From positions 1 to 64,000 of IMG/VR virus record IMGVR_UViG_3300045988_174371: DNA of 64,000 nt; one strand, 5' to 3'. This document shows positions 143 through 63,824 of this stretch, one piece after another. How positions within the stretch are numbered: the first letter of the stretch is position 1; each line of letters opens with the position of its first letter. The notes beneath the pieces are model-generated. The model was not told the DNA's origin and did no database searches. It saw only the letters and a list, made by a program, of their open reading frames with translations. Source of the stretch: a virus. The position numbers and the translations under genes are program-made.

Positions 143-354
143 TGTTTTTCACGTGCACAACTCGGTATGGTGTTATTCGCGTCACATGAGCTACCCCTCG
201 CATATGAGAGAGATGCTACCGGGGACATCACCGCGTACAGGGAATAGACTCTCGACCATATTCAGCCACACGACGCGCTTGGAGCCACCAACATATGCTA
301 GGGGCGCTTCCTTCCTAGTGTAACCACCCAGGGCGGAAGAGCCTTTGACCTCCC

Positions 355-513
355 TGTAACAGTTAGATGGGTCAGAACTTAGTTCTGGCGGTAACCCTCT
401 AGTCAGCTTAGTGGCTGACCTTCTTGTTCTTGACACTACCGCAACCCGGCTAGGCATCGGCAATGTCCGTTTATTTCAGATACCTCTCCCAGCCTCTCTT
501 AGTCGAGGTGGTG
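355..513 (-). ncRNA. structured RNA element, copy A of a 4-member family
   Basis: Aligns with 2000-2168, 37611-37764 and 60481-60575. Shares the core (rc) GGTGTCAAGAnCAnGAAGG, a UAA-loop hairpin at 371-389 and a long-range stem 388-394/436-442. No promoter of its own; lies just 3' of the recombinase terminator. Confidence 0.5.
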
Positions 514-1894: not shown

Positions 1895-1999
1895 GAATAG
1901 TCTCCTATACGTAGTGGATAAAAAGAGATGTAGCCGCCGCCGCGTATATGGGAAGAAACGCTTCCCGTCTACGGTAATTACCTACCCAAGGCAGGATAC

Positions 2000-2168
2000 A
2001 CATCCGGCTCCCAAAGCGGCTGGATGGGGTAGAGATTATCCCTGGCGGCAACCCTCCGGTTGGCAAACGTCAGCCTTCCTGGTCTTGACACCACCGCCGC
2101 CCGGCTAGGCTTTGGTAATGTCCGTTTAGTTTATCCACCTCTCCCGTCTCTCACAGGCGAGGTGTAGC
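2000..2168 (-). ncRNA. structured RNA element, copy B (5' leader of the 1349-1894 operon)
   Basis: Begins about 7 nt downstream of the promoter at 2175-2185. P1 hairpin 2136-2164, core GGTGTCAAGACCAGGAAGG (rc), UAA-loop hairpin 2031-2043. Confidence 0.55.
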
Positions 2169-2174
2169 ATTTTC

Positions 2175-2185
2175 AGTGTAGCACA
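2175..2185 (-). promoter_or_regulatory. extended -10 promoter
   Basis: rc reads TGTGCTACACT, immediately upstream of RNA element B. Confidence 0.6.
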
Positions 2186-3003: not shown

Positions 3004-3071
3004 TGTGTCTTCCCTTGCTTTGATTGGTGGATATTTGGGGAGGGCAACTGAGGCACCCCCCTCATCTCCAT

Positions 3072-3082
3072 ATTGTACCACA
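3072..3082 (-). promoter_or_regulatory. extended -10 promoter
   Basis: rc reads TGTGGTACAAT. Confidence 0.6.
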
Positions 3083-3098
3083 TATCATTAGCACTTTG

Positions 3099-3146
3099 GA
3101 AAGACTGTGGCACACTCCTAATGTCGGGGGCGTGTCACAGTCTTTC
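3099..3146 (-). terminator. hairpin terminator
   Basis: 11-bp arms gaaagactgtg / cacagtctttc downstream of the stop at 3185. Confidence 0.5.
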
Positions 3147-3184
3147 AATGCTTATGTCCGATAGGGCGCGGCTATTAGTAGCAC

Positions 3185-3595: not shown

Positions 3596-3663
3596 GGTAC
3601 AGGTTCCTTTCGGAGGGGTCTTAGCGGTTCTTTTACACAGTCTTTCCTCTGCTTGACAAGAAA

Positions 3664-3674
3664 AGTGTATCACA
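3664..3674 (-). promoter_or_regulatory. extended -10 promoter
   Basis: rc reads TGTGATACACT. Confidence 0.65.
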
Positions 3675-3733
3675 TATTTGCGGGCTCCCAAGTAGCGCTT
3701 GGGTGGTGTGTCACACACGACGTATCGAGCACC

Positions 3734-3799
3734 TAAAAAGGCGGCTAAGTGAGAACCTGGCTGGACATATCCAGCCAAAACAGTTCCACTTAGCCGCCT
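3734..3799 (-). terminator. rho-independent terminator
   Basis: 13-bp arms aggcggctaagtg / cacttagccgcct followed by a U-run on the minus strand. Confidence 0.7.
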
Positions 3800-3832
3800 C
3801 ATTTACAAGCATTGCTTTAAGTCTAACGGAAG

Positions 3833-13203: not shown

Positions 13204-13306
13204 GTTGATTTCCTTCTTTAAAGGGGGGTATTGTTGGTTCCCTGCCCTTCCGCTTGGTGGAGGGCTTGGGAGGTGTGCAAGGATTTCCCTGCGACCCAAC
13301 AGTTAT

Positions 13307-15549: not shown

Positions 15550-16740
15550 TTATCGGTGCTTGATGGTTACGGTGATTCCGCGAGCGGCTAGACGCTTTAG
15601 GATGTCCTCTGAGAGGGAGCGGAGGCGTGCCGGGTACTTCTCGATGAGTTCACTGAACGTCCTGTCCATCAGATGCATGTTCACGAGCGCTTCCTGGACG
15701 TTGGTCATCTTGATTTCCTTCTGGTTGAAGAAGTCAATTCGTACCTTCAGCTTTTCTTCCTCGGTGGTGGCGGCATCTAGGTTACGCTTGAGGTTTGCGT
15801 AGATTGCCTGTCCTTCGGATAGGAGCTCTTCGATGCATTCCACTACGGGGGTGAGCTTATCCTCTGCGCCGTTTTCCGTGAGGATTGCCTGACGCGCCAG
15901 CATATCGTCGATGGTTCCATTGGCGAATGCCTGGATGATTCGGCGGACACCCTTGCGGGATGACTTGCGGATGTACGGGTGGAGGAAGTCGTTGCTGTTC
16001 ATGAACCAGTCTTCGGTCTTGAACTTGATGAGTCGCCCGTACTCATTGACGACGACGAACCCTTCGATACCCTTTGCTTCCTGCTGGATGGTTTCAACCT
16101 CAGGAATGGTCATGTGGTAGATGTTAGGTGCGGGAAGATTGAGTTCCTGTGCTACTTCAAGCATGATGAGCGGCGACAGGTCGCCGGTTGCCTTCTCAGA
16201 TACACCGATGAGGGTAAGCTTCTCTTCGTCGTACATGACGTTGATAAGGTTGTTCGGGGAGGTGTATTCGAAGATGAGGCACTTTTCCGGGTTCTGCTGG
16301 AGCCACTGCTTCACCTGAGGGGTTTCACCCAGGAGGCGGTAGACAGGCTCGGTGTAGTCGGGGTGCTCAATGACGCTGGAGGTCGTGAAGAGGTATTCAC
16401 CGTTGTAGAGTCCGACGATGATGCAGGTTCCGTCTAGCTTCTCGTAGAAGGTCACCTTTTCGTTGCGGGTGAAGGAGCCCATGTGGGTGAACTCTTCCTT
16501 GAACTTTGCGTCCACGGTGGTCTTAGCGTCGTACTGCTTCCAGTTGAAGAACTTGTTGAAGCCTCGGAGGATTACTTCGCCCTGCTCGTTGAGGACAAGT
16601 CCTCGTGCGGCGCGCAGGTAGGGGTCTTCGAAGTCGATAACCTCAGGGCGGTACTTAACGCAGGTGAGGTTGCGCTCCTTGTTCGTGTTGAACTTTACAA
16701 GGTGTGAGTAATTCTCCTTGTAATGCTGGAGTAGGTTCAT
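15550..16740 (-). CDS. ATP-dependent RNA ligase (Rnl1-like)
   Basis: 396 aa; nucleotidyl-transferase motif I EKLDGT; RAARGLVL...FNKFFN upstream segment; SD GAAGGGAA. Confidence 0.7.
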   Translation of the reverse strand: MNLLQHYKENYSHLVKFNTNKERNLTCVKYRPEVIDFEDPYLRAARGLVLNEQGEVILRGFNKFFNWKQYDAKTTVDAKFKEEFTHMGSFTRNEKVTFYEKLDGTCIIVGLYNGEYLFTTSSVIEHPDYTEPVYRLLGETPQVKQWLQQNPEKCLIFEYTSPNNLINVMYDEEKLTLIGVSEKATGDLSPLIMLEVAQELNLPAPNIYHMTIPEVETIQQEAKGIEGFVVVNEYGRLIKFKTEDWFMNSNDFLHPYIRKSSRKGVRRIIQAFANGTIDDMLARQAILTENGAEDKLTPVVECIEELLSEGQAIYANLKRNLDAATTEEEKLKVRIDFFNQKEIKMTNVQEALVNMHLMDRTFSELIEKYPARLRSLSEDILKRLAARGITVTIKHR

Positions 16741-16807: not shown

Positions 16808-16818
16808 AGTGTATCACA
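16808..16818 (-). promoter_or_regulatory. extended -10 promoter
   Basis: rc reads TGTGATACACT followed by ctagttatcg. Confidence 0.65.
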
Positions 16819-20414: not shown

Positions 20415-21974
20415 CTACTTCTGGCGCTTCGCACGCTGAGAAGTCGATACCCAGGTGTCCACGGTATCGCTATCGCCCTTATACTGGCGACGCTCATAGC
20501 TCCACTTATGCCTGAAGGTGCGTCCACCAGAGTAGCGCTTAAACGAAACCTTCTCAGCAGTGAAGATGGCGACACTGAGGTGACCGCCCGCGTGCTCAAC
20601 CTTAGACTCTAGCGGAATAAGGTTACGGTACTGTGCGGGGTCGCCGTAGTTGCCTCGATGACCACACACTGCGATAAGCTCGCTATTGGGGTGTCCACCT
20701 TCGTCCTTATGCATCTGCGTTGCCTTTGCGTAGAGCGCGTTGAGCGGTTCAGCCCAACCCTCATAGGTGCCACACCCATTAAGGATGTCTACACTCTCAC
20801 TATAGCCGGTCTCCCAATGCTTGAGCGGGTAACGGTAGATGCTTCCAACCTGCTTCGCGGGTCGCAAATCGGTAACCTGCTTCGCATATGCCGAATCAGC
20901 ATAGAGCTTCGGGTGAACACCTGCATGGCTGAGGTACAGGTACTTGCTGGAGACTCCGCCGCATTCTTCTACGCTGTCGAGGCGTAGCTCTGCGGCAGGC
21001 AGGGCAGTAGATAGCGCGTCCTTGATGACCTTCTCGCTGTAGCCGTGTTCCTTGAGCGCCTTGACAGTGATAAGGCTATCCTTGACGGTGTTCACTCCTG
21101 CTAGGACGTTGAGAATCTGCGACTCGTGGTTGCCGTTGATGAGCTTTACATTGTCACTCCCCTCAATAAGGTGCGGGAAGGTGATGTCTGCCACCTTTGC
21201 AGGCGTGTTACCTCGGTCGAACAGGTCTCCAATGAACACCCAGAGGGTCTTCTTGTCGTTAAGTCCCTTGCCGGGCGCGAGGTCTTCGAGTGCGGCTTCC
21301 AGAGTGTTACCCATGCCCTGAATGTCACCCAGGATGCATACGCGGTCATAGGTGTTAGCCAGGTCGATAGCGATGTGCTGGTGGATGGAGTCTCGGAAGT
21401 TCACGCGGCTCGCCATGTGTTCCATGAGGTCTGCGGGCTTAATGTACCCCTGGACGCGGGGGTATTCTCGGAGCATAGTGCGCCAGTTCTTACGCAGTTC
21501 AATATTCTGCTTGTGCATCTTGGAGACAGTGTGCTCAGGAACCTTCTTGTAGCCGGTTCGTCGCGCATTGCGCTCCTGAATTTCCTCTAGAGTCTGGTCA
21601 CCCTGAATGTCGATAAGCCACACCTTGTAGGAGTACTGCTCTGCCAAATCCAGGAACCCGCGCATATTCTCCAGTAGGGTGTTCGTATTGTCTACGAAGA
21701 TGGTTTCACCAGTTCGCATGAGAACGTCAGTGTCAATATAGGAGGTCTTGATTGCCGCCTTCTCCTGCGCGCCACTGAGAGGCTGGACGTAGGACTCCTC
21801 GAAGCCATCTTCGGTGGGGGTGTAGGTGAGCACTGCCGGGGACTCGTGGCGGTAGCGTGCTCGGTAGGCATCCCAAGAGATGACACGTCCCAGGTGATGC
21901 TTCTCGATAGTTTCCTTGATGTAGGTGCTCTTGCCGGAGCCGGGTGCGCCGGTGAGCAGGTACATGTGTCGCAT
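20415..21974 (-). CDS. polynucleotide kinase / metallophosphatase (Pnkp-like RNA end-healing enzyme)
   Basis: 519 aa; P-loop GAPGSGKST; calcineurin-type motifs GDIQG, GDLFDRG and NGNHE. Confidence 0.75.
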   Translation of the reverse strand: MRHMYLLTGAPGSGKSTYIKETIEKHHLGRVISWDAYRARYRHESPAVLTYTPTEDGFEESYVQPLSGAQEKAAIKTSYIDTDVLMRTGETIFVDNTNTLLENMRGFLDLAEQYSYKVWLIDIQGDQTLEEIQERNARRTGYKKVPEHTVSKMHKQNIELRKNWRTMLREYPRVQGYIKPADLMEHMASRVNFRDSIHQHIAIDLANTYDRVCILGDIQGMGNTLEAALEDLAPGKGLNDKKTLWVFIGDLFDRGNTPAKVADITFPHLIEGSDNVKLINGNHESQILNVLAGVNTVKDSLITVKALKEHGYSEKVIKDALSTALPAAELRLDSVEECGGVSSKYLYLSHAGVHPKLYADSAYAKQVTDLRPAKQVGSIYRYPLKHWETGYSESVDILNGCGTYEGWAEPLNALYAKATQMHKDEGGHPNSELIAVCGHRGNYGDPAQYRNLIPLESKVEHAGGHLSVAIFTAEKVSFKRYSGGRTFRHKWSYERRQYKGDSDTVDTWVSTSQRAKRQK

Positions 21975-35594: not shown

Positions 35595-36035
35595 CTATGC
35601 GCCCTTCTCATTCTCGGGAGAGTTCACCACAGTATTATCCGCGTCGTGAGTTACTTCGCTAGAGGTCTTAGCTACAGGCTTCTCACCCTCCTCAGCTTCC
35701 ACCGGCGCACCTTCCGACTCTTCCTTGATACCCTTCCGTACTTCTCGGAAAGGACCAACGAGCGCAAAGGTAGCTAGAACCACACAAATGACCGCAATAA
35801 CCAACTGAACAACCTTCAGGGCAATATTGTCGCCCCTAAAGACCTCAAGAAGGTTACCCACACCCATCAAGGCGAGCATCAGCATAAAGAGAACCGGCTG
35901 GCTACAGCTCATGAGTGACTTCATGAAGGTCTGACCATTTGGTCGGAAATTAAAATAGACAATAGCGATACCAGCGGCAAGGAAAATGTCACCGATAAAG
36001 CCAAGCAAATAGTGAATAGAATGCATGTCAAGCAT
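35595..36035 (-). CDS. membrane protein
   Basis: 146 aa; four hydrophobic segments; SD GAAAGG. Confidence 0.7.
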   Translation of the reverse strand: MLDMHSIHYLLGFIGDIFLAAGIAIVYFNFRPNGQTFMKSLMSCSQPVLFMLMLALMGVGNLLEVFRGDNIALKVVQLVIAVICVVLATFALVGPFREVRKGIKEESEGAPVEAEEGEKPVAKTSSEVTHDADNTVVNSPENEKGA

Positions 36036-36147
36036 CTTGAAAACCTTTCGTATGTGCAGGCATGACAGGGAGCCTGCAAGGACTATGTGCTCTCGCCCCC
36101 GCCGTGGTTAGTGTAGAACCGTGGCAGGGGCGAGAACCTAAATACTT

Positions 36148-37446
36148 CTAGTCTACCTCGGTGGCGGTAGAGGGCTTGAAGCGTTCCGGGAAGTATAGGC
36201 AGAAGTCGGTAATCTTACCGTCAATCCCCTCATCCTCATCCTCATCACCTTCATTGCCTTCAATGAGGCATAGAGGTGACTCAGAATCATCAAGCGTATA
36301 CTTCACACTCGCATTAACTGGGAGCTTATACGTACCCATCAGCTTATAATCATCTTCTTCAAGAAGTACATACTTCTTACCCTCGTGAGACTTAATGTAG
36401 TCATCAAGAACAGCATCCTCGCTATCGAGACCATTGAAAGGCAAGACAGCGAACTCCAACGAAGAGTAATCCCACACCTTATCGTAAGGAGCGCACTCCT
36501 CATCAGCCGGAATACTAGGGTTGAAGAAAATCATTGCGAGAACCAAAGCACCGGAAGCGTACATGAGCCACACCGGAGCTGACTGCGTGAAGAAGAACAG
36601 AGAGTACAATGCAACTAGTGCAATAGCCAGAAGAGCGGCGGAAGCAGTCATCACCAGCGAAGAGAAGGGGCGATGCAGAAGGCTCCAGCCGGGGAACTCC
36701 AAATCCCCCATCATCTTATCGTGATTGATACGCAGAATAGGCTCATCAATCAGACGGCTAACCTCATTCTCTCCAAAGTTCTCAACAGCCGCCGCATAAC
36801 GCTCAGCACGAGACTTCTCATAGACCGAACGAATCAAACCCTTAACAGGCTTCTTCTCAGACATCGGAACATGAATCTCATAATGCAGATAACGCCTAGC
36901 AGACTCCCACTCACCAAAGACAACCTTCAGCCTCGGAGCAGAACCCTCAATCGCATCATAAACAGTGCGGACGCTATCGACCCTATCCAGGGAACCCTTC
37001 GAGAAAACCGGAGCCACCGGCAAGACCTTAGCCTCACCATCATCCGAAACAGTGACCCAAAGCTTACCGTCAGCAACCTTGAAGAACCGCTCCACATACG
37101 GAGCACCCTCAGCGACACCCTCAACAGGTAGCACTTCATACTCGACAGCCTCATCATCACTGTAATCCTTCACAGCAAGAGGCTCACCGCTGGTACGCTT
37201 CCACAATGAAAAGCCAATGAGTGAACAAGTGAACGTAATCACCGAAGCGGGCAAAAGAAAAATTCCACTAACGAAAATGAAAAAGCCCGTAACCGGCGAA
37301 TAGCCGCCCGCAGTCGTAAGGTTAAACCCAGACAATGCGACACCGCCCAAGGACAGAAGTAGCATAGCCGCCGCGAAAGCGAACAGGTTACGCCGCGAAA
37401 GCTTAGTCAAAGCCCTAGGCTTAATCAATTTCTCGTAAAGAGACAA
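36148..37446 (-). CDS. membrane protein (two hydrophobic clusters)
   Basis: 432 aa; TTG start; preceded by a ~320-nt leader that contains RNA element C. Confidence 0.7.
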   Translation of the reverse strand: MSLYEKLIKPRALTKLSRRNLFAFAAAMLLLSLGGVALSGFNLTTAGGYSPVTGFFIFVSGIFLLPASVITFTCSLIGFSLWKRTSGEPLAVKDYSDDEAVEYEVLPVEGVAEGAPYVERFFKVADGKLWVTVSDDGEAKVLPVAPVFSKGSLDRVDSVRTVYDAIEGSAPRLKVVFGEWESARRYLHYEIHVPMSEKKPVKGLIRSVYEKSRAERYAAAVENFGENEVSRLIDEPILRINHDKMMGDLEFPGWSLLHRPFSSLVMTASAALLAIALVALYSLFFFTQSAPVWLMYASGALVLAMIFFNPSIPADEECAPYDKVWDYSSLEFAVLPFNGLDSEDAVLDDYIKSHEGKKYVLLEEDDYKLMGTYKLPVNASVKYTLDDSESPLCLIEGNEGDEDEDEGIDGKITDFCLYFPERFKPSTATEVD

Positions 37447-37610
37447 ACCGATACACTACCTTCCAGTAATAAGAACGAATAAGAATGAGGAACAGCAAGA
37501 AGAAGCCACTCCCTTGTGTATGGGAAAGCTGAGCAGGCATCTAGAGAAGGATGCACCCAAATTAGGGAGAATGCTCACCTAATACATGAAGCGCATCCAG
37601 TTTCCCAACT

Positions 37611-37764
37611 CAGTTAGATGAGTCAAGGCTTAGCCCTGACGGTAACCCTTAGTCGGTAGATGCCAGCCTTTCCTGGTCTTGACACCGCCGCCACCTAATT
37701 ACTATCAGGCTCGGCAATGCCCATTTATTTCACGCACCTCGCCCGTCTCTCACAGGCAAGGTGC
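37611..37764 (-). ncRNA. structured RNA element, copy C
   Basis: Begins about 7-10 nt downstream of the promoter at 37774-37784. 10-bp P1 stem 37734-37743/37755-37764 with a U.G pair valid only on the minus strand; UAA-loop hairpin 37622-37640. Confidence 0.55.
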
Positions 37765-37773
37765 GTTAGCTCA

Positions 37774-37784
37774 AGTGTAACACA
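37774..37784 (-). promoter_or_regulatory. extended -10 promoter
   Basis: rc reads TGTGTTACACT. Confidence 0.6.
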
Positions 37785-37866
37785 GACGAGCCCTGTGTGT
37801 GAAAAACGCGGACTCCCTGCACTGTATATTCCCTGCCCGCCTCTTCTTGAGGTGGATGCCGTGGGG

Positions 37867-38136
37867 TTACTCTGGGGTTATAACGCATTCTGTGGTACTG
37901 CGTATGGTGGCTTCGTAGTCCTTTGTCCAGTAGTTGTCTGGGGCGTACCCGAATAGAACGTCAAATACGGCTCGTATTTCGCCGTTGGGTTTGCGCTCTG
38001 CGCCTAGCAGGAATACGCCTATGGGCTCTTCTAGCCCTTCGGCTTTACACTTCTTGAGGTATTCATTTTCGGCAAGTTCTGTGATACGCTGTTTCACTGC
38101 CGGGGTGATAGTCTGCGCTTGTTGTGACGAAGGCAT
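37867..38136 (-). CDS. hypothetical protein
   Basis: ATG at 38136 lies 1 nt after the upstream stop; the longer ORF would start at 38163. Confidence 0.55.
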   Translation of the reverse strand: MPSSQQAQTITPAVKQRITELAENEYLKKCKAEGLEEPIGVFLLGAERKPNGEIRAVFDVLFGYAPDNYWTKDYEATIRSTTECVITPE

Positions 38137-38137
38137 C

Positions 38138-38413
38138 TTAGAAGCTTTCATAGTATTCGACATCTTCTTCGATTGTGTAGGTGTTGGTTGCGCTGATGGT
38201 TACTCGGTAGCCCCTTTGCCACTGGTGGTATCGAGAGTCTTCGTAGTGGGCGAACGCTAGGGCTTTGATGGAGCCGTCGTTGGTGCGTTCAAGTTCTTCT
38301 AGGTAGACCTCGTGAGGGTCGCTTTCGGACGGGTCCATAACGCTTACTGCCTTGGTCTTAACCAGGTTCGCAATGTATTCCTGGGTGGTTTCGCTAATGC
38401 TGGTGGCGGTCAT
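38138..38413 (-). CDS. hypothetical protein
   Basis: 91 aa; SD GGAAAGG. Confidence 0.7.
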   Translation of the reverse strand: MTATSISETTQEYIANLVKTKAVSVMDPSESDPHEVYLEELERTNDGSIKALAFAHYEDSRYHQWQRGYRVTISATNTYTIEEDVEYYESF

Positions 38414-38476
38414 GAGGTTTGCCTTTCCTGATTGGGTAGTGGGTGGGGAGCTTTGAGTCCACCCCTCATATGTAAT

Positions 38477-38487
38477 AGTTTACCACA
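38477..38487 (-). promoter_or_regulatory. extended -10 promoter
   Basis: rc reads TGTGGTAAACT. Confidence 0.6.
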
Positions 38488-38579
38488 GATTTTATGCCTT
38501 AAAAACATTGAGAGCCTGTCATTTTAAAGATGAGCCAGTAGTGTTTGCGAGGTGCGCATGTTAATTATTAAGAAATTGC

Positions 38580-38642
38580 GAAAAACAGTACCAATATGAG
38601 GCTAGACCCTTAGGGATGAACTTCATATTGGTACTGTTTTTC
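38580..38642. repeat. 20-bp perfect inverted repeat in an AT-rich island
   Basis: gaaaaacagtaccaatatga / tcatattggtactgtttttc, located between divergent promoters. Confidence 0.8.
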
Positions 38643-38800
38643 ACTTCTTATAGAGTGCCCGACACGTAACATACTGCAAAGATTGAGTGTGATAGATATG
38701 CGGCTACCACACTGCCAATCCTAGAAGATTCTTCGTCCGTTGGGGACTGAGGTTAATGTGGCGCAAACCACCCTGACGAATTTTTGTCGTGTCTCAAAAC

Positions 38801-38811
38801 TGTGGTACAGT
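38801..38811 (+). promoter_or_regulatory. extended -10 promoter
   Basis: TGTGGTACAGT, 60 nt upstream of the ATG at 38871. Confidence 0.6.
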
Positions 38812-38870
38812 GTATTTCGTGAAGCTTCGCGCTTCCACACCCATAGTACGGTAACTACCAAAGGAGGACA

Positions 38871-39293
38871 ATGACTACCAACACCATTACTCTTGCCAAC
38901 TTCTCCATGCTCGGCTTCTTTGAGGGCGACTTTAGCGCCCAGTACATTGAAGCACTCAAGGGTGAGACCTCGACGGTAATCAAGAACCCGTCCATCAAGC
39001 TTGATAAGACTTCGGGTGCTCACGGTCGTCAGGAGCATCTTTTCCTGGATGTTGAATTTGAAGCACCCGCTGAGTTGGAGCCTGCGCGCACTGAGGAATC
39101 TAACGACGAGCAGGATACCATCATTTTGAAGGCGGTTTTTGGTATCACCTCGGGTGCTATTCGAGACATTGCCGAAAATATTGTGGCGATGGATGATATT
39201 CCCGTGGAAGTTGAAGTTACCAACATCTCCACCTCTGGAGGCGGTTTGAAGATGTCACTTGGCGGCTCTGGATTGCTGGAGCTGACCGCCTAG
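38871..39293 (+). CDS. hypothetical acidic protein
   Basis: 140 aa; SD AAGGAGG. Confidence 0.75.
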   Translation: MTTNTITLANFSMLGFFEGDFSAQYIEALKGETSTVIKNPSIKLDKTSGAHGRQEHLFLDVEFEAPAELEPARTEESNDEQDTIILKAVFGITSGAIRDIAENIVAMDDIPVEVEVTNISTSGGGLKMSLGGSGLLELTA

Positions 39294-39331
39294 CATCTTC
39301 CCTGCCTGATTGAGCTGACTACCGTATAGAG

Positions 39332-39370
39332 CAAAGTGCCCCTCGCATTGAATTTGCGAGGGGCACTTTG
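39332..39370. terminator. bidirectional hairpin terminator
   Basis: 16-bp perfect arms caaagtgcccctcgca / tgcgaggggcactttg. Confidence 0.65.
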
Positions 39371-39401
39371 TTGCGCCATTTGCTATTGGTGTGCGTTGGG
39401 G

Positions 39402-40508
39402 TTAGCCGCCAGAGGTGCCACCGCCGGACTTCGAACCGCCACCAAAGCCGCCCTTTGAACCGCCCGAGGAGGAGCCGCCAGACTTTGAGCCGCCACTTGA
39501 TGGGGAGCCACTGTTAGACGATGAGTTACCGGACTTCTGAGAGCTGTTCGAGCTGTTACTGGATGAGTCGCTGGACTTCGAGCTACTGGAGCCGTTCTGG
39601 GAGCCATTGGAGCCACTGTTGGGCTTCGAGTTAGTGTCTGCCGCCTTGTCGGACTTGGAAGCGCCCTGGGAGCCGCTGGAGCCGTTCGGGGAGGTGTTAT
39701 TGTTCTTGTTGCCAGTATTGCCAGAGTCAGGCTTGTTTCCTGCCTTGTTTGCGGCAACAGCACCTGCCGCCGCTCCAGCCGCCGCGCCTGCACCTGCCGC
39801 CGCCGCTCCATTATTGGAGGAGCTTGAGTTGGATGAGGAGTTGGAAGACGAGGAATTGCCAGCAGGCTTGCCTGCCGCGCTCTTCATGTTGTTGCGCTCA
39901 ATGGTGGCAACCTTGCCGTCCTTCATGCCTGCCTTTGCGCGAGCGGAGCGGTAAGAGTCTGCGAAGGAGCCGCCGGTTGAGGGGAGCCCTTGGTATACGG
40001 TGCCTTTCTGCGGTGCAGTATTGGAGCCGCCATGCAGGGAAGCGCCAACGCTGGGTACGTTGCCGTTGTTGTAGCCGCCCGTGTATGCGTAACTGCCGCC
40101 GCCATTGGAGTTCTGCGACATCATGTAGCCGATGTAGTACCAGATGAAGGGGTTTCCGCCGCCGCCGCCGTTATGCGAGTCACCGCCCGAGCCTGCACTG
40201 CGTGCATGTTCTGCCGCCGCCTCGCCGGTCGGTGAAGCGCCTGCGGTGGTAGGCTCTTCGCAGTTATTGTCTTCCGCGCGGGTATTGTCGGCAGTGTTCT
40301 GGCATACGCGCACATATTCCATCCCCAACGTGCTGAAAGGGGTTTCCGTAGGCTGGGGTGAGGTATTTGAGTTAGGGGCTGAACAGCCGGATAGCGCGAG
40401 TAGGCTTACGCCAGCCGCCGCCGCAAGGCGAATAGCGGTCTTGTCCCCATGCTTAGGGGGCTTGGAAAAAGAATTGCCGTTCTGCGCGGGGTTGAAGTTA
40501 GTGGACAT
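39402..40508 (-). CDS. lipoprotein with low-complexity Gly/Ser/Asn-rich C-terminal half
   Basis: 368 aa; lipobox LLALSGC; SD AAGGAGG. Confidence 0.75.
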   Translation of the reverse strand: MSTNFNPAQNGNSFSKPPKHGDKTAIRLAAAAGVSLLALSGCSAPNSNTSPQPTETPFSTLGMEYVRVCQNTADNTRAEDNNCEEPTTAGASPTGEAAAEHARSAGSGGDSHNGGGGGNPFIWYYIGYMMSQNSNGGGSYAYTGGYNNGNVPSVGASLHGGSNTAPQKGTVYQGLPSTGGSFADSYRSARAKAGMKDGKVATIERNNMKSAAGKPAGNSSSSNSSSNSSSSNNGAAAAGAGAAAGAAAGAVAANKAGNKPDSGNTGNKNNNTSPNGSSGSQGASKSDKAADTNSKPNSGSNGSQNGSSSSKSSDSSSNSSNSSQKSGNSSSNSGSPSSGGSKSGGSSSGGSKGGFGGGSKSGGGTSGG

Positions 40509-43309: not shown

Positions 43310-43750
43310 ATGGCTCAGGCAACCCAGGCACTCACTATCGAAGGTCAGCTCCACATGGACGAAGCTCAGAAGAAGATTGTGAAGCTTCCCAAGTATGGCG
43401 AACCAACCGGCAATCACTACCAGCACCTCATCAACTTCCTGCAAGGTGAACACACCAAGAAGACCAACACCCCCTACCAGATGTACGGAAAGTTCAACAT
43501 CTGGAGCAACAGTGAAGAAGGCGAAGAACCCTACGAGATTGGCTACGAAGTAGAGTTCACCTCTGACGCAGAATGCGAGAAGCCGACCGGCATCCGAATC
43601 TTCGAATACCGCGAAGACGACGAAGAAGGTTGCGAGAGCAACAAGGAACTTCTCGCCCTGAATGGTCGAAAGTTCAAGGTTACCAGTGCAATGCCCTTCA
43701 GCTCCGCAGGTGACTACCTGGCAGAAACGACTATCGCCCTCATCGACTAA
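43310..43750 (+). CDS. hypothetical acidic protein
   Basis: Start at the ATG at 43310 after SD AAGGAGAG, downstream of the promoter. Confidence 0.75.
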   Translation: MAQATQALTIEGQLHMDEAQKKIVKLPKYGEPTGNHYQHLINFLQGEHTKKTNTPYQMYGKFNIWSNSEEGEEPYEIGYEVEFTSDAECEKPTGIRIFEYREDDEEGCESNKELLALNGRKFKVTSAMPFSSAGDYLAETTIALID

Positions 43751-44055
43751 GCACAGTAAGGTAAGGCGGGGCATCTCCAACTAAGGAGGTGTCCCGCCTT
43801 ACCATGCCCTGCAACCCCTGAGCCTGCCATGAGCGCCACTTTTGGCGGATGTGAGGTAAATATTCCACCGTCTCGCTTACCGTTATGGTAGGGGCGTTCC
43901 GCTTCTCGCGCAGTATTCTTCGCGGTGTTAAGGTCATGGTCAAGCTTGTACCCACAATGCCCGCAGTGGAACATGCGGTCACTCAACCCCTGCTTCTCAG
44001 TTGCGCGCTCCTCACAGTTACTACAGGTCTGAGATGACGAATTGAAATGCGTCAA
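43747..44055 (-). pseudogene. TnpB C-terminal remnant (5'-truncated and frameshifted)
   Basis: Retains SSQTCSNCE...FHCGHCGYKLDHDLNTAKN (zinc ribbon plus RuvC-III). The expected NILRE continuation is in another frame, and the N-terminal ~300 aa are absent. Confidence 0.7.
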
Positions 44056-47453: not shown

Positions 47454-47561
47454 CTAGAATGGGAGCATGGTGGAGATTACGCCAAGAACGACGAAGAACG
47501 CCATAGCGCACAAGCCAACAGTAATATTTCGGTCGGGGTTATCGTTACGGTTGCTACTCAT
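47454..47561 (-). CDS. possible 35-aa hydrophobic peptide (below the ORF-track cutoff)
   Basis: Hand translation gives MSSNRNDNPDRNITVGLCAMAFFVVLGVISTMLPF; SD AGGAG 5 nt before the ATG. Confidence 0.35.
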   Translation of the reverse strand: MSSNRNDNPDRNITVGLCAMAFFVVLGVISTMLPF

Positions 47562-59567: not shown

Positions 59568-60432
59568 CTATTCTGTCACCACCGGAACCGCCTTCTCTGC
59601 GCTACCTACGGGTACATGGATAATCGTTTCCGCCTTCACAAACTTCACGGTAACGTTCCTGGTACAAGAGCCATACAGGGTAACATCTGCTTTTTCGTAC
59701 CTTAGTGGGTCGATGCATTCTTTGTGTCCGGCAGCGATTTCCTCAGGATTGAGCGCGTACTCGTACTTACGTTCGACGCGAGCCTCCGTATCAGTAGCGG
59801 GCAAGTCGTCCTTCACAACCACTTCCATTGGCGCATCTAGCGACCCTTTATACACCTTTCGAGCGGCAAGAGTGCCATCAGAGCGCTTCTCAACCCACCT
59901 ATAAGTGGTGCCTTCAGGATTGACTCTCAGATTTGAGATGGGGTAGGTGTGTTTCGCCTTCCATTTTACGGTTGTCGGCATCAACGTAGTGCGTCACAGG
60001 CTGAGTGAACTTCGCATCCTCAGCCTTTGCGCCATTGACCATTGAGGTAGCCATCCCTACAAGAAGTAGGGAGAGTAGGTAGATAAGCCCGGTCAGGTAC
60101 ACATCTTCAGCCTTTATACCCTCCTTGTACTCTTCCACTGCTCCCCCTTGGTTGAAGGAGCTGATGGCGGCGACAAGGGTTATGATAGCCGCAATGATGA
60201 CGTGAGCTATAAGCCAGCGTGCGTCAAAGAATAAGACGAGCACACATGACACTGCTACGTGGGCGGCAACGAATAGGCGCGCCCACCGCCGCATAAACGA
60301 GTTCACGGCATAAGTTGTCCTGCTTACCTGCCGGTCTTTAGTGATGATGGCAGTGACCACTATAAGCGGGATGAGGATATAGGCGGCAATGCTCACAACG
60401 GTGGCTATAAGCCATGCTGTATTGGTGTCCAT
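59568..60432 (-). pseudogene. frameshifted paralogue of membrane protein 62028-62903
   Basis: ORFs 59914-60453 and 59568-59984 together align with the single 291-aa ORF. Relative to 62028-62903 there is a 2-nt deficit at gtgtgt (59947-59952). Confidence 0.6.
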
Positions 60433-60480
60433 AAAGGGTTGTTGTCCTCTCATGTATAGTCAGGTGGGTCAAGGTTTAGC

Positions 60481-60575
60481 TCCTGGCGATAGTCCTCCAG
60501 GTAACTAACGCCAGCCTTCTCGGTCTTGACACCGCCGCCACCCCATAGAGCTTTGGCAGTGCCCCCTCGCTGGCG
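60481..60575 (-). ncRNA. structured RNA element, partial copy D
   Basis: Retains the core (rc) GGTGGCGGCGGTGTCAAGACCGAGAAGGCTGGC and the GGGCACTGCCAAAGC segment. Lacks the P1 hairpin and a promoter; intergenic within an operon. Confidence 0.4.
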
Positions 60576-60576
60576 G

Positions 60577-61341
60577 TTAGCGATTGAGCTTGTTGTCTAT
60601 TTCAGTGGCAATTACGTCCCTGATGATTTCGTCTATAGTGTGTCGCTCCTGGTGGTCTGCCCAGGTGGTTGCCTCAATGGTGGCGTGGGTGGGGAGTCTG
60701 TCGATGAGGTGCGCGAGCTTCGCTGAGGTTTCCTTAATCTCGTTGTAGAGTTCTTCGAGTGCTTCGCCGGTCAGCCATTCCTTTTGGGTTACAGGCGGCG
60801 TAGCGCTAGTGGGCGGGGTAGTGAGAAGGTTTAACACTTCTCGTACTGCTTCCACTGCGGGCTCGGTGGTTGCCAGGGCGTTCTCCAGGTGTGAGGTGAA
60901 GGTGCGGAGGTTGATGTTTGCCACTGCTTCACGGTAGGACTCATGCTTGTACTGCTCGGCTTCGGCGTATTCCATAATTGGCGCAATGTAGGGGCTGTTT
61001 CGCAAGGTAGCCGGAAGGCTGTGGCGACTGTAGCTTGTGTCATGGTCGTGCAGTAGCGTGTAGTATGCCAGGGCATGTAGCTTCTGGGTAAGTACAGTGT
61101 CTTGAGTGGGGATGTTCGTTTCGGGCATGAACGTGTAACCTGCGTGTTCGTAGCCGCCTACGTAGTCGTCGCTCCTATGCCAACCGGCAAGGTTTTCGGT
61201 GGGTACGTAGTATCCGTGCCCGTTGCGGTCAAGGTGTAGGGTGGCACCTAGCACGTTGAACCAGGTTGCGCCGGTTTCCTTGTCGTGGTGTTGGGCTACG
61301 AGGGTGTTTACGTATTCTTCTAGGGTGATTTCTGTGGACAT
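60577..61341 (-). CDS. hypothetical protein
   Basis: Start at the ATG at 61341 (MSTEITLEEY) after SD GAGGAAA; the longer ORF would start inside the terminator loop. Confidence 0.7.
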   Translation of the reverse strand: MSTEITLEEYVNTLVAQHHDKETGATWFNVLGATLHLDRNGHGYYVPTENLAGWHRSDDYVGGYEHAGYTFMPETNIPTQDTVLTQKLHALAYYTLLHDHDTSYSRHSLPATLRNSPYIAPIMEYAEAEQYKHESYREAVANINLRTFTSHLENALATTEPAVEAVREVLNLLTTPPTSATPPVTQKEWLTGEALEELYNEIKETSAKLAHLIDRLPTHATIEATTWADHQERHTIDEIIRDVIATEIDNKLNR

Positions 61342-61370
61342 TATTTCCTCTAGTTCTTTCGTTGGCTTGT

Positions 61371-61412
61371 GATACCCCTGCATAATCATGGTTCGGTTAA
61401 TGCAGGGGTATC
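61371..61412 (-). terminator. hairpin terminator
   Basis: 13-bp perfect arms gatacccctgcat / atgcaggggtatc. Confidence 0.6.
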
Positions 61413-62027: not shown

Positions 62028-62903
62028 CTAATCCACTACGGACAGCATCCTACCGGCGCTACCCTGCGGAATATGAATAACCGCCTCAGCTTTCACGAAC
62101 TTTACGGTACTCGCGCCATCCTTGCATACGGGGTAGATGCCTGCGTCTTCGTCCACAATGCGCGAGGCAACACACGCCTCCTTACCCTCAGCAATTTCTT
62201 CAGGGATAGGCACATACTCATACCTGCGTTCGACGCGCGCCTCCGTATCAGTAGCGGGCAAGTCGTCCTTCACAACTACCTCCCAGTGCCCATCAGTAAC
62301 GTGCCTGAAAGCTTTGCGGGTAGTTAGCGTACCGTCCTCACGCTTCTCAATCCAGGTGTAAGTGTCGCCCTCATCATTAACTGCAATATTTGAGATGGGG
62401 TAGGTATGCGAATCGCCCTCTAGCTTATGATTGTCAGCGTCCAAGTAGTAGCTGACCGACTGGGTGAATTTCGTATCCCTTGCGGCTTCCTTCGCCTTCT
62501 CCTGACCATACAAGACAGAAGCTTCCGCGAAGAACATTAGCGCTCCGAAGAAGATAAGCCCAACAAACAGAGTATCAAAGAAAGTTCCTGACGTGCCCTC
62601 CGACTCTGTGCGCCTAGCCCAAACGAGAAAAGCGGCAAAGAGTGCAATTAAAGTCGCCCCCAGAACATGCAATCCAAGCCACATAGTGCCAGTCGCGATT
62701 GCTAGAACAAAGAATCCCAACATAGATAGGCAAGGAATTAGCACGCTCCACAGTTCGCGGAATGTAGACATGCGACGATGGGCGCGTTCTGAAATCTTCG
62801 CGCGGAAGACCTTGCCTGCCAAGAATACTGCCAGTAGGGGCAATAGGTATATACCAAGGAAAATGAGTGTAAGAATCGGTTCCCAGGTTTCTCTAATCTG
62901 CAT
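62028..62903 (-). CDS. membrane protein (N-terminal TM region plus soluble C-terminal domain)
   Basis: 291 aa; the intact version of the 59568-60432 locus; ~50 nt nearly identical DNA at 62228-62276 and 59771-59819. Confidence 0.75.
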   Translation of the reverse strand: MQIRETWEPILTLIFLGIYLLPLLAVFLAGKVFRAKISERAHRRMSTFRELWSVLIPCLSMLGFFVLAIATGTMWLGLHVLGATLIALFAAFLVWARRTESEGTSGTFFDTLFVGLIFFGALMFFAEASVLYGQEKAKEAARDTKFTQSVSYYLDADNHKLEGDSHTYPISNIAVNDEGDTYTWIEKREDGTLTTRKAFRHVTDGHWEVVVKDDLPATDTEARVERRYEYVPIPEEIAEGKEACVASRIVDEDAGIYPVCKDGASTVKFVKAEAVIHIPQGSAGRMLSVVD

Positions 62904-63813: not shown

Positions 63814-63824
63814 AGTGTATCACA
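63814..63824 (-). promoter_or_regulatory. extended -10 promoter
   Basis: rc reads TGTGATACACT. Confidence 0.65.

What the first reader, a model, noticed from the sequence alone, without database searches (positions are those of the whole stretch)
37560..37790. Four-copy family of ~160-nt structured RNA elements with compensatory base changes and their own promoters
Four intergenic segments align with each other and share no conserved reading frame: 355-513, 2000-2168, 37611-37764 and a partial copy at 60481-60575. Read on the minus strand they share four parts. First, a 5' hairpin with the conserved loop UGUGAGAGACG. Second, GGNCAUUGCCRA. Third, an invariant core GGCGGUGUCAAGACCAGGAARGCUG. 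Fourth, a 3' hairpin with a UAA loop whose stem sequence differs between copies but always pairs: cagaac/guucug, aggga/ucucu and gucagggc/gccuugac. The long-range stem (gcgguag/uuaccgc versus gcggugg/uugccgc) and the P1 stem of copy C contain G.U pairs that would be A.C mismatches on the plus strand, so the minus strand is the likely RNA strand. Copies B and C begin 7-10 nt downstream of a consensus TGTGnTACACT promoter and precede the next start codon by ~100 nt, so they are either 5' leaders (riboswitch-like) or stand-alone small RNAs. I do not recognise the motif as any RNA family I know.
Basis: seen in the sequence. Interest (0 to 1): 0.8.

Follow-up and report, generated by a model that had tools for sequence, protein, structure and literature searches.

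The report
Phage copies of Cas12n tracrRNA
The four repeated structured RNAs are real and are copies of the scaffold RNA (tracrRNA) of the miniature CRISPR nuclease Cas12n; the RNA class is already described, but having many promoter-driven copies scattered through a giant phage from the human mouth, most without a working array, is unusual.

Summary
Four homologous elements of about 135-163 nt lie on the minus strand: A 352-512, B 2009-2166, C 37603-37765, D 60449-60582. Across 30 distinct homologues, 34 of 44 base pairs show changes on both sides. Rfam has no match, but the family is known. In a 91-95% identical relative phage, one copy lies 23 nt downstream of a 520-aa gene that matches RdCas12n (PDB 9J09) at E=1.8e-171. 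A covariance model built only from the window copies hits the tracrRNA position of Rothia Cas12n loci, including the locus that encodes the RdCas12n protein. The published stems, pseudoknot loop and triplex strand map onto the element. The pseudoknot triplet covaries with the 3' end of the local CRISPR repeat. In relatives, each copy is followed by a mini-CRISPR array of 1-4 repeats. In this genome at least 11 copies exist, 7 of them just outside the window among tRNA genes. Here the arrays have decayed to single degenerate repeats, and cas12n is missing from its syntenic site. B and C do have their own promoters. The riboswitch reading is not supported. Verdict: a known RNA kind in an unusual multi-copy, partly orphaned phage layout. 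Whether these copies still work here is unresolved.

The parts
37603..37765 (-). Copy C, a full-length tracrRNA-like RNA. Stem 1 with the pseudoknot loop is at 37733-37765, the triplex strand AAUAAAUGG at 37721-37729, stem 2 at about 37678-37720, the core GUGUCAAGACCAGGAAAGG at 37667-37685, and stem 4 (UAA loop) at 37622-37640.
   Evidence: R1 scores 155.5 bits, E=1.1e-40. The fold has z=-8.0. An orthologue is present in the relative at L007:10423-10585. A copy also sits at the same position in a phage whose downstream protein is only 56% identical (L215:2254-2414, nhmmer E=1.3e-40).
37774..37803 (-). Promoter of copy C: -35 TTCACA, an 18-nt spacer, then the extended -10 TGTGTTACACT. It ends 8 nt before stem 1.
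37502..37528 (-). Degenerate CRISPR repeat downstream of C (CUUUCCCAUACACAAGGGAGUGGCUUC). A weaker second one may lie at 37549-37572.
   Evidence: The nhmmer repeat profile hits 37503-37527 at 6.1 bits, E=1.9, which is weak on its own. However, 3 of the 6 best window hits lie 50-130 nt downstream of an element on the same strand. At the same position in L215 there are three good repeats, E=2e-6 to 5e-6.
2009..2166 (-). Copy B, a full-length tracrRNA-like RNA.
   Evidence: R1 scores 171.4 bits, E=5.6e-45. The orthologue in the relative is L102:387-544.
2175..2185 (-). Promoter motif TGTGCTACACT, 8 nt upstream of copy B.
1930..1957 (-). Degenerate repeat downstream of B (UUCUUCCCAUAUACGCGGCGGCGGCUAC). 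It is followed by the ribosome-binding site and the ATG (1894) of the next gene.
   Evidence: nhmmer gives a weak hit at 1938-1955, E=4.8. The orthologous repeat in the cas12n-bearing relative keeps the canonical GGCUCC tail, while the window copy has GGCUAC.
352..512 (-). Copy A, tracrRNA-like, with a degenerate stem 1 and no promoter motif. It lies downstream of a serine recombinase gene (611-1324).
   Evidence: R1 scores 153.4 bits. In the relative, the positions correspond to L102:2182-2325 and L014:1893-2024, on either side of cas12n.
221..245 (-). Degenerate repeat downstream of A (AUUCCCUGUACGCGGUGAUGUCCCC).
   Evidence: This is the best nhmmer repeat hit in the window, 226-247, 8.3 bits, E=0.4.
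60449..60582 (-). Copy D, truncated. Stems 2-4 are present, but stem 1 and the pseudoknot loop are missing. It begins at the stop codon of ORF 60577-61389 and ends a few nt before the next ORF. It probably cannot work as a tracrRNA.
   Evidence: R1 scores 94.8 bits. The alignment shows the 5' hairpin columns empty.
47526..47556 (-). An 'empty' site. At the orthologous place, the relative phage carries an extra copy (L007:621-771) fused to a repeat tail (GGCGGCUCC) and to the start of a small ORF.
43747..44055 (-). C-terminal fragment of a cas12n/TnpB-like gene (zinc ribbon plus the last RuvC motif). It may be a remnant of an effector gene. No tracrRNA-like hit lies next to it.
   Evidence: tblastn gives 43% identity to phage Cas12n residues 432-515, E=2e-13. 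Pfam Cas12f1-like_TNB matches at 2.5e-10.

Best explanation
The elements are members of the tracrRNA family of type V-N CRISPR-Cas12n systems (formerly V-U4; 'Cas12n' in the sense of Fu et al. 2025). The window belongs to a roughly 360-kb jumbo phage from the human mouth whose host is probably Rothia. In this phage group the basic unit is a module: promoter or upstream tRNA, then tracrRNA, then a leader of about 60 nt, then a mini-CRISPR array of 1-4 repeats. The module is repeated many times.

Mechanism, by homology to the RdCas12n structure: stems 1-4 form the scaffold that Cas12n binds. The CCCAYC tail after stem 4 pairs with the repeat part of a crRNA. A triplet in the stem-1 loop (GAG) forms a pseudoknot with the last bases of the repeat (CUC). 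The complex then cuts DNA that matches the spacer next to an A-rich PAM.

What is shown: the homology, the structure, the link to cas12n and to repeats in relatives, and the promoters.

What is inferred: that the RNAs are made, that they bind Cas12n, and what they target.

In this particular genome the system looks partly decayed. cas12n is absent from its syntenic site and the arrays are reduced to single degenerate repeats. D lacks stem 1 and A has a degenerate stem 1. B and C are intact, promoter-driven, and double as the 5' leaders of the mRNAs that follow.
For: 1. Protein link. In the 91-95% identical relative, a copy lies 23 nt after a 520-aa ORF. That ORF matches RdCas12n (PDB 9J09/9UDI) at E=1.8e-171 over residues 16-519.

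2. RNA homology to the characterised system. Model R1, built only from the four window copies, hits the 3' end of cas12n on the same strand, just before the CRISPR array, in three settings:
- the locus encoding the RdCas12n protein, which is 100% identical to the PDB chain over the 201-residue stretch compared (L207:1852-2007, 29 bits, E=3e-7);
- a 92%-identical Rothia locus (38 bits, E=1.6e-9);
- R. mucilaginosa (25 bits, E=7.7e-6).
Fu et al. place the 170-nt tracrRNA overlapping the 3' end of the ORF. Model R2 also hits the 3' ends of distant cas12n/TnpB-like genes in Mycobacterium, Nonomuraea and Actinomadura.

3. Architecture. The published five stems, the pseudoknot at -170..-168 and the triplex strand -152..-148 (AACGG) map onto stem 1 and its loop, the invariant UAAACGG, a stem 2 of variable length whose top is dispensable, stem 3 and stem 4.

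4. Pseudoknot covariation at the same loop positions:
- R. dentocariosa: GAA with repeat end UUC-C;
- R. mucilaginosa and two other phage clades: GGC with GCC-N;
- this phage clade: GAG with CUC-N.

5. Arrays. There are 13 copies of a 27-nt repeat at a 59-63 nt period, in groups of 4, 4, 2, 1 and 2 after the five copies in L014. The repeat is homologous to the Rothia repeats, which have a 61-nt period.

6. Covariation. 34 of 44 pairs change on both sides.

7. Module C is kept at the same position, with repeats, in a phage whose neighbouring protein is only 56% identical.
Against: - No cas12n gene lies in the 64-kb window or in the 9.4 kb beyond its left edge, and it is missing from the syntenic site. 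Whether the rest of the 360-kb genome has one is unknown.
- The window's repeats are only weak profile hits, E=0.4-4.8. B's repeat tail is mutated from CUC to CUA.
- Unlike the Rothia chromosomal loci, the phage tracrRNAs do not overlap the cas12n ORF.
- No target was found for any spacer in the window, INPHARED or IMG/VR.
- Between diverged phages, the tracrRNA is no better conserved than the neighbouring genes: 77% nt identity, against 84% for the upstream ORF and 69% for the downstream ORF.
- There are no expression or binding data.
Confidence: 0.8

Rival explanations
1. Decaying relics. The copies descend from tracrRNAs but have no CRISPR role in this genome any more. What persists is the promoter plus a structured leader that drives or stabilises the downstream mRNAs (B, C), or simply fills an intergenic gap (A, D).
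For: cas12n is missing at the syntenic site. Arrays are reduced to single degenerate repeats. D lacks stem 1, and three further copies just outside the window are truncated or mutated at invariant positions (L205:15701, 16215, 17334). Truncated cas12n genes of 124-393 aa are common in this phage clade. The promoter upstream of B is the nearest promoter-motif match upstream of genes 1349-1894 and 611-1324.
Against: B and C keep every stem and all the invariant junction motifs. Module C is retained at the same site across phages whose neighbouring protein has diverged to 56% identity, with structure-preserving changes. The rest of the genome was not seen and may encode Cas12n.
Confidence: 0.3
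2. RNA-guided selfish spread (homing). The copies behave like TnpB right-end RNAs. The scaffold is fused to a repeat tail, and the adjacent flank serves as the guide. A phage carrying a copy would then cut the empty allele of a co-infecting relative, and the copy would be pasted in during repair.
For: There is a presence/absence polymorphism at window 47526-47556 versus L007:605-790. The inserted copy is fused to GGCGGCUCC followed by the flank. The empty allele has AAT (fitting an AAN PAM) just 5' of the homologous 25-nt stretch, which carries 3 mismatches. Fused forms also occur at L102:5374 and at L210:1287 and 3319. The family is viewed as descending from TnpB guide RNAs.
Against: This rests on one polymorphic site. 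The match between guide and empty allele follows trivially from homology of the flanks. The change is a replacement (38 nt for about 190 nt), not a clean insertion. Two of the mismatches are PAM-proximal. The PAM of the phage enzyme is unknown.
Confidence: 0.1
3. tracrRNA decoys (an RNA anti-CRISPR). Promoter-driven orphan tracrRNAs soak up or misdirect the host's own Cas12n.
For: Rothia chromosomes encode Cas12n at 54-58% identity, with homologous tracrRNAs and arrays. The window's genome keeps intact, promoter-driven copies while lacking cas12n at the usual site.
Against: Close relatives carry their own cas12n and cognate arrays, which explains the copies without any decoy role. The phage pseudoknot triplet (GAG) does not match the host repeat ends (GCC, UUC), so these RNAs could not pair properly with host crRNAs. 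No host spacer matches the window.
Confidence: 0.05
4. Riboswitch or other cis-acting leader that senses a ligand.
For: B and C lie between a promoter and the next start codon, 115 and about 157 nt upstream of it. The junctions are highly conserved.
Against: The downstream genes are unrelated and have no Pfam family. Most copies follow tRNA genes or cas12n. The conserved junctions correspond to protein and RNA contacts in the RdCas12n structure. No conserved expression platform was found, and the region between the element and the start codon is the fastest-evolving part, at 52% identity.
Confidence: 0.02

Closest known systems
RdCas12n tracrRNA/sgRNA scaffold (type V-N CRISPR-Cas12n, Rothia dentocariosa; Fu et al., Nat Commun 2025, PMC12216341; PDB 9J09/9UDI)
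   Same: The sequence and structure are homologous: CM hits fall at the tracrRNA position. Stems 1-4 match, as do the loop that forms the pseudoknot with the repeat's 3' end, the AACGG triplex strand, and a stem-2 top that can be removed. In relatives the RNA lies next to cas12n and to repeats of the same family.
   Different: There are many copies per genome: at least 11 in this phage, and at least 11 in the fetched parts of the relative. They are dispersed over at least 60 kb, have their own promoters or follow tRNA genes, and do not overlap the cas12n ORF. Each has its own tiny array. In the window there is no cas12n and only degenerate repeats.
TnpB guide RNA (omega/right-end RNA) of IS200/IS605 elements, e.g. 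ISDra2
   Same: According to Fu et al., the L-shaped core (stems 1 and 2 plus the pseudoknot) is shared between the two. Some phage copies are fused directly to a repeat tail and a flank-derived guide, like a single-RNA guide. There is a presence/absence polymorphism.
   Different: No TnpA was seen beside any copy; transposon-end hairpins were not searched for. Most copies are followed by true repeat-spacer units. The TnpB-like gene inside the window (12028-13299) belongs to a different family and has no such RNA next to it.
Virus-borne mini-CRISPR arrays and phage-encoded CRISPR-Cas systems (archaeal virus mini-arrays; huge-phage Cas12j; Cas-lambda), recalled from memory
   Same: Short arrays of 1-4 repeats carried by a virus, presumably used against competitors or the host.
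   Different: As far as I recall, those arrays rely on crRNA-only effectors or on the host's Cas proteins. Here every mini-array comes with its own tracrRNA gene.
RNA anti-CRISPRs (phage-encoded repeat mimics), recalled from memory
   Same: Phage-encoded CRISPR-derived non-coding RNAs with their own promoters, sometimes without a cas gene.
   Different: As far as I recall, those mimic the crRNA repeat. These are tracrRNA homologues, and their pseudoknot triplet matches the phage's own repeats, not the host's.

Membership tests
Type V-N (Cas12n) tracrRNA | Sequence and structure homology to an experimentally defined Cas12n tracrRNA | tested here: met
   R1, built from the window copies only, hits L207:1852-2007 (29 bits, E=3e-7). 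The protein encoded there is 100% identical to the PDB 9J09 chain over the 201-residue stretch compared. It also hits L208 (38 bits, E=1.6e-9) and L201 (25 bits, E=7.7e-6). All hits overlap the 3' end of cas12n on the same strand. The paper places the tracrRNA there. E-values from the shortened calibration are rough.
Type V-N (Cas12n) tracrRNA | Multi-stem scaffold (stems 1-4), supported across homologues | tested here: met
   Over 30 distinct sequences, 89% of cells are paired against 38-51% in the slid controls. 34 of 44 pairs change on both sides, and 0 of 500 shuffles reach this. The alignment was fitted to the model, which favours the structure somewhat.
Type V-N (Cas12n) tracrRNA | Pseudoknot between the stem-1 loop and the last bases of the CRISPR repeat | tested here: met
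   The same loop positions carry GAA, GGC or GAG, and the local repeat ends in UUC, GCC or CUC respectively, across five lineages. Within the window, A, B and C have GAG. C's repeat tail CUU still pairs through a wobble, B's CUA does not, and D has no loop.
Type V-N (Cas12n) tracrRNA | Encoded next to (overlapping) a cas12n gene | tested here: not met
   There is no cas12n in the window or in 9.4 kb beyond it. In the relative, one of at least 11 copies lies 23 nt after cas12n, and another about 160 nt before it. The feature is met for the family in relatives, but not for the four window copies.
Type V-N (Cas12n) tracrRNA | Cognate CRISPR array with a repeat complementary to the tracrRNA tail | tested here: inconclusive
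   In relatives, clear arrays of 4, 4, 2, 1 and 2 repeats follow the copies, and 3 repeats follow the copy in L215. In the window there are only single degenerate repeats, E=0.4-4.8, though they are correctly placed. Tail-to-repeat complementarity is only about 5 bp (CCAUC/GAUGG or CCCAC/GUGGG), read by eye.
Type V-N (Cas12n) tracrRNA | Binds Cas12n and supports RNA-guided DNA cleavage | not testable with these tools
   This needs biochemistry or small-RNA sequencing.
TnpB omega/right-end RNA (IS200/IS605) | Lies at the 3' end of tnpB inside a transposon with defined ends, with the scaffold followed directly by a flank-derived guide | tested here: not met
   The window's TnpB-like gene (12028-13299) has no hit next to it. 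No TnpA was seen; transposon ends were not searched for. A few copies in relatives are fused to a repeat tail plus flank, which points to ancestry rather than current membership.
Riboswitch / cis-regulatory leader | Recurrent association with functionally related downstream genes, plus an expression platform | tested here: not met
   The downstream proteins have no Pfam match and are unrelated to each other. Most copies precede arrays or tRNA genes. The region between the element and the start codon is only 52% identical between phages.
Any Rfam 15 family | Score at or above the gathering threshold | tested here: not met
   Only three tRNAs reach threshold in the window. Around copy C the best permissive hits are chance-level snoRNA models, E=0.24 and 7.7.

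The most novel reading that the evidence does not exclude
These jumbo phages carry a state between a TnpB transposon and a CRISPR system. Dozens of self-contained, promoter- or tRNA-punctuated 'tracrRNA + mini-array' units would serve one small Cas12n. Some units are still fused into single natural guide RNAs whose guide is the neighbouring DNA. The units could spread between co-infecting phages by RNA-guided cutting of empty alleles. In genomes that have lost cas12n, like this one, the orphan RNAs could borrow or block the host's Cas12n.
Probability: 0.15. Interest if true: 0.85.

Novelty: new variant of a known kind. Interest (0 to 1): 0.55.

Why it matters
The RNA itself is not new: it is the Cas12n tracrRNA, a family missing from Rfam but solved in complex with its protein. 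Three things are worth attention.

1. **Layout.** As far as I know, a CRISPR locus normally has one tracrRNA. Here a phage genome holds at least 11, each with its own promoter (or a tRNA in front) and its own mini-array. Three phage clades share this pattern. I found no paper describing it, though only the open-access library was searched.

2. **Fused and split forms in close relatives.** This bears on how TnpB guide RNAs split into tracrRNA and crRNA.

3. **A natural series** of cas12n-plus and cas12n-minus phages with intact versus decayed arrays. It could show what these systems do for a phage.

On the practical side, the natural variation in stem 2 (from 5 bp with a tetraloop to about 35 nt) matches the published engineering result that the top of stem 2 can be removed. 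It also supplies many ready-made compact scaffolds.

Tried and rejected
- **Rfam.** Searched at gathering and at permissive thresholds; nothing relevant.
- **Close DNA matches.** Megablast of 36000-40000 against the phage and plasmid collections gave no match.
- **First viral pattern scan.** It returned 101 stretches, and all but one contig were chance matches.
- **Link to the window's own TnpB.** I tested whether the element is the guide RNA of the TnpB-like gene at 12028-13299. There is no CM hit there, and that protein is unrelated to the cas12n of the relative beyond the zinc-ribbon motif.
- **R1 on distant relatives.** R1 found nothing beside 19 viral TnpB relatives (apart from L102, the relative's own cas12n locus) or 80 actinobacterial relatives at 28-38% identity. 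The broader R2 later picked up three of the seven actinobacterial loci re-searched.
- **Reaching Rothia.** The genome-contig scan missed Rothia because its peptide patterns were too specific to the phage protein. I reached Rothia through the protein search instead.
- **Spacer targets.** I compared 15 phage spacers and 22 Rothia/other-phage spacers against the window and its extension (the phage spacers against every locus fetched by then). I searched 9 spacers against INPHARED and 2 against IMG/VR. No target was found.
- **Is there a cas12n elsewhere in this genome?** Cluster listings show no member on a 360,715-bp contig, but the listings are incomplete, so this stays open.
- **Supplementary sgRNA sequence** of Fu et al. 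is not held.
- **Ideas dropped.** I considered a put-like antiterminator and a self-cleaving ribozyme early on, and dropped both once the Cas12n link appeared.
Full report

Yes. Read on the minus strand, the four segments align with 69% mean column identity and share no reading frame. I built a covariance model (R1) from them. It recovers exactly four places in the 64-kb window: B 2009-2166 (171 bits), C 37603-37765 (155), A 352-512 (153) and D 60449-60582 (95). With all filters off, the next best hit scores 10.8 bits at E=0.17.

Copy C folds far better than shuffled sequence on the minus strand (z=-8.0) than on the plus strand (z=-2.9). The other copies are less striking alone: z=-3.4, -1.8 and -1.3. 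Thermodynamics is therefore not the main argument. Covariation is (section 3).

The TGTGnTACACT motif is a genuine feature of this genome. It has 33 matches against 3.9 expected, nearly all on the minus strand and between genes. It sits 8 nt upstream of B and of C. For C there is also a -35 TTCACA at an 18-nt spacing.

- D has no 5' hairpin at all.
- A has no promoter and a degenerate hairpin.
- The 'invariant core' varies in A and D.
- The proposed long-range stem does not hold up once more copies are aligned.

**2. Where does the window come from?**

The window is phage-like. It encodes an RNA ligase, a kinase-phosphatase, a serine recombinase, a TnpB-like gene and three tRNAs, and most of its proteins have no family. 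It has no close match among deposited phages or plasmids.

Looking up its recombinase protein by exact sequence found a 360,715-bp contig from a human oral metagenome. That contig is 99.99% identical to the window over 11.3 kb (locus L205).

A pattern scan of IMG/VR found one true relative, a 306,861-bp contig that is 91-95% identical and lies in the opposite orientation.

The nearest cellular homologues of its Cas12n are named Rothia. The host is therefore probably Rothia; this is an inference.

**3. More copies and a firm structure**

The relative holds 8 copies in the first three loci fetched, and more in L102. The window's own genome holds 7 further copies in the 6.5 kb just beyond the window's left edge, interleaved with 19 tRNA genes.

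With 12 copies aligned, 89.6% of cells pair, against 37-47% when partners are slid, and 19 pairs change on both sides.

With 30 distinct sequences from three phage clades and Rothia chromosomes, 89.0% pair (controls 38-51%). 34 of 44 pairs change on both sides, and no shuffle out of 500 reaches any measure.

Stem 2 ranges from a 5-bp hairpin capped by a tetraloop to a branched stem of about 35 nt. The junctions UAAACGG, CAAGACC and GGUYACCGU are nearly invariant. That pattern is typical of an RNA held by a protein.

**4. What it is**

In the relative, five copies lie within 3.5 kb among 13 tRNA genes. One of them starts 23 nt after the stop codon of an ORF with OrfB_IS605 and Cas12f1-like_TNB domains. 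The full ORF is 520 aa. It matches the solved structure 9J09/9UDI at E=1.8e-171 over almost its whole length. That entry is Cas12n of Rothia dentocariosa, a type V-N (formerly V-U4) CRISPR nuclease. It uses a 170-nt tracrRNA overlapping the 3' end of its gene plus a 40-nt crRNA, and recognises an AAC PAM (Fu et al. 2025, PMC12216341).

I then fetched Rothia loci through the protein search.

- In R. mucilaginosa, R1 hits L201:4544-4715, which overlaps the end of the gene (3001-4680). This is followed by a seven-repeat array with a 61-nt period.
- In the locus that encodes the RdCas12n protein (P0119, 100% identical to the PDB chain over the 201-residue stretch compared), R1 hits L207:1852-2007. 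This again overlaps the gene end (1973) and precedes the array.
- A broader model (R2) also hits the 3' ends of distant cas12n/TnpB-like genes in Mycobacterium, Nonomuraea and Actinomadura.

The element is therefore a homologue of the Cas12n tracrRNA.

**5. Mapping onto the solved RNA**

The paper's numbering can be laid on the L207 sequence. Two positions come out one base off (paper -173C against -174C here; paper -172A against C here).

| Published feature | Element feature |
|---|---|
| Pseudoknot bases -170..-168 | GAA in the stem-1 loop |
| Triplex strand -152..-148 | AACGG, inside my invariant UAAACGG |
| Stem 2, disordered top can be deleted | My variable stem 2 |
| Stem 4 | The UAA-loop hairpin |
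| Stem 5 | Tail-to-repeat duplex beginning CCCAU:AUGGG |

At the same three loop positions, the lineages carry different triplets, and each matches the last bases of its own repeat:

| Lineage | Loop triplet | Repeat end |
|---|---|---|
| R. dentocariosa | GAA | UUC-C |
| R. mucilaginosa and two other phage clades | GGC | GCC-N |
| This phage clade | GAG | CUC-N |

This covariation between two separate RNAs is the best evidence that the phage elements pair with the phage repeats as tracrRNA and crRNA.

**6. The repeats**

Each of the five copies in L014 is followed, after a leader of about 60 nt, by a mini-array: 4, 4, 2, 1 and 2 repeats respectively. The repeat is 27 nt (TCCCCGTACACGTGGGGATGGCTC...), with a 59-63 nt period. 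It is clearly related to the Rothia repeats.

Other phage clades show the same modular design: four copies in 5 kb around cas12n in L212, and four copies in L210.

In the window, a profile of the repeat gives only weak hits. However, three of the six best lie 50-130 nt downstream of A, B and C on the right strand (221-245, 1930-1957, 37502-37528). Only about 0.35% of positions qualify, so this is very unlikely by chance.

B's repeat ends GGCUAC here but GGCUCC in the cas12n-bearing relative. At the position of module C, a phage whose neighbouring protein is only 56% identical has the same promoter, an intact tracrRNA (nhmmer E=1.3e-40) and three good repeats with irregular spacers.

Between these two phages:

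| Region | nt identity |
|---|---|
| tracrRNA | 77% |
| Upstream ORF | 84% |
| Downstream ORF (first 900 nt) | 69% |
| Leader/array stretch | 52% |

The scaffold persists while the arrays turn over.

**7. State of the system in this genome**

In the relative the gene order is: element (=B), ORF, recombinase, element, cas12n, element, array, tRNA-Lys, element, array, tRNA-Tyr, and so on.

In the window's genome, the stretch from cas12n to the second array is missing. Copy A sits where the two flanking elements would have recombined; that is an inference.

The only cas12n-like sequence in the window is a 102-aa C-terminal fragment at 43747-44055. Truncated cas12n genes are frequent in this phage clade.

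Several copies just outside the window are truncated or mutated at invariant positions. Whether the other roughly 290 kb of the genome encodes Cas12n could not be checked.

**8. How it most likely works**

*Shown:* the homology, the structure, the promoters, and the association with cas12n and repeats in relatives.

*Inferred:*
- The RNA is transcribed from its own extended -10 promoter, or released from a tRNA-containing precursor.
- It binds Cas12n through stems 1-4.
- It pairs with a crRNA through the tail and the pseudoknot.
- It directs cutting of matching DNA next to an A-rich PAM.

The targets are unknown. No spacer matched the window, INPHARED or IMG/VR.

Because B and C lie between the nearest upstream promoter motif and the next genes, they are also the 5' leaders of those mRNAs.

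**9. Rivals**

- *Relics.* In this genome the copies may be relics whose promoters and leaders are all that matters. The missing cas12n and the decayed arrays favour this. The intact B and C, and the long-term retention of module C, argue against it.
- *Homing.* A more adventurous reading is RNA-guided homing. The relative has an extra copy at window 47526-47556, fused to a repeat tail and to the flank, and the empty window allele has AAT just 5' of the homologous stretch. This is a single case, and the match follows from homology of the flanks.
- *Decoy.* A decoy role against host Cas12n is possible, but the pseudoknot triplet fits the phage's repeats, not the host's.
- *Riboswitch.* This is not supported.

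**10. Novelty**

The RNA class is known and structurally solved, so the finding is not a new family, although Rfam lacks it.

The layout appears to be new. Many tracrRNA genes occur in one genome, each with its own promoter or preceding tRNA and its own mini-array, and three clades of oral jumbo phages share the pattern. Fused single-guide forms and orphaned copies occur alongside. I found no description of this in the searchable literature. That search covers only open-access papers and preprints.

I rate it a new variant of a known kind, of moderate interest.

Noticed in passing
window, 33 sites, e.g. 132-142, 2175-2185, 16808-16818, 37774-37784, 63814-63824: TGTGnTACACT (an extended -10 box) occurs 33 times with up to 1 mismatch, against 3.9 expected. 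27 of these are on the minus strand, upstream of genes, so it is probably the main promoter type of this phage. A similar TGATACACT precedes tracrRNA copies in another phage clade (L210).
   Followed up: partly
window 12028-13299 (-): A 423-aa TnpB-like gene (OrfB_IS605 plus the Cas12f1-like TNB domain). It is unrelated to the relative's cas12n beyond the zinc-ribbon motif and has no tracrRNA-like hit beside it. Its own guide RNA, if any, would lie at about 11800-12030.
   Followed up: partly
window 43747-44055 (-): A 102-aa ORF that is a C-terminal fragment of a cas12n/TnpB-like protein (43% identical to phage Cas12n residues 432-515; Pfam TNB domain 2.5e-10). It is probably a gene remnant and is also present in the relative.
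   Followed up: partly
window 47526-47556 versus L007:605-790: Presence/absence polymorphism. The relative has a tracrRNA copy fused to a repeat tail (GGCGGCUCC). It replaces the first 38 nt or so of a small membrane-peptide ORF and supplies a new ATG. The window allele has AAT just 5' of the homologous stretch.
   Followed up: partly
L102:5374-5516; L210:1287-1423 and 3319-3443: Some copies in relatives are natural single-guide forms. Stem 4 is followed by a short closed hairpin and then a repeat tail (GGGGAUGACUCC or UGGGG(C/U)UGAGCC), which runs straight into flanking sequence.
   Followed up: partly
L205:11324-17500 (the same genome, just beyond window position 1): A dense cluster of 19 tRNA genes interleaved with 7 further tracrRNA-like copies. 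The four copies in L014 that follow a tRNA gene start 24-31 nt after its 3' end, usually after a small hairpin. This suggests co-transcription and release by tRNA processing enzymes.
   Followed up: partly
window 15550-16740 (-) and 20415-21974 (-): An RNA ligase (T4 Rnl1-like) and a kinase/phosphoesterase (Pnkp-like). Together with the large tRNA set, this looks like a tRNA repair kit against host anticodon nucleases.
   Followed up: no
window 59568-60453 (-) versus 62028-62903 (-): ORFs 59914-60453 and 59568-59984 overlap, and together they match the single 291-aa ORF 62028-62903. This looks like a paralogue split by a frameshift, or one expressed by frameshifting. It is the gene directly downstream of copy D.
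   Followed up: no
window 611-1324 (-): A serine recombinase/invertase (Resolvase plus HTH_7) lies between copies A and B, next to the variable cas12n/tRNA region. It could contribute to rearrangements there.
   Followed up: no
window 39402-40508 (-): A 368-aa protein with a lipoprotein-like N-terminus and a long Ser/Gly/Asn-rich low-complexity tail.
   Followed up: no
protein clusters P0178 and P0186 (contig of 235,983 bp); P0149-P0172: At least one related phage contig carries two different Cas12n genes. Many relatives carry truncated versions of 124-393 aa, so the effector gene is often duplicated or lost in this clade.
   Followed up: no
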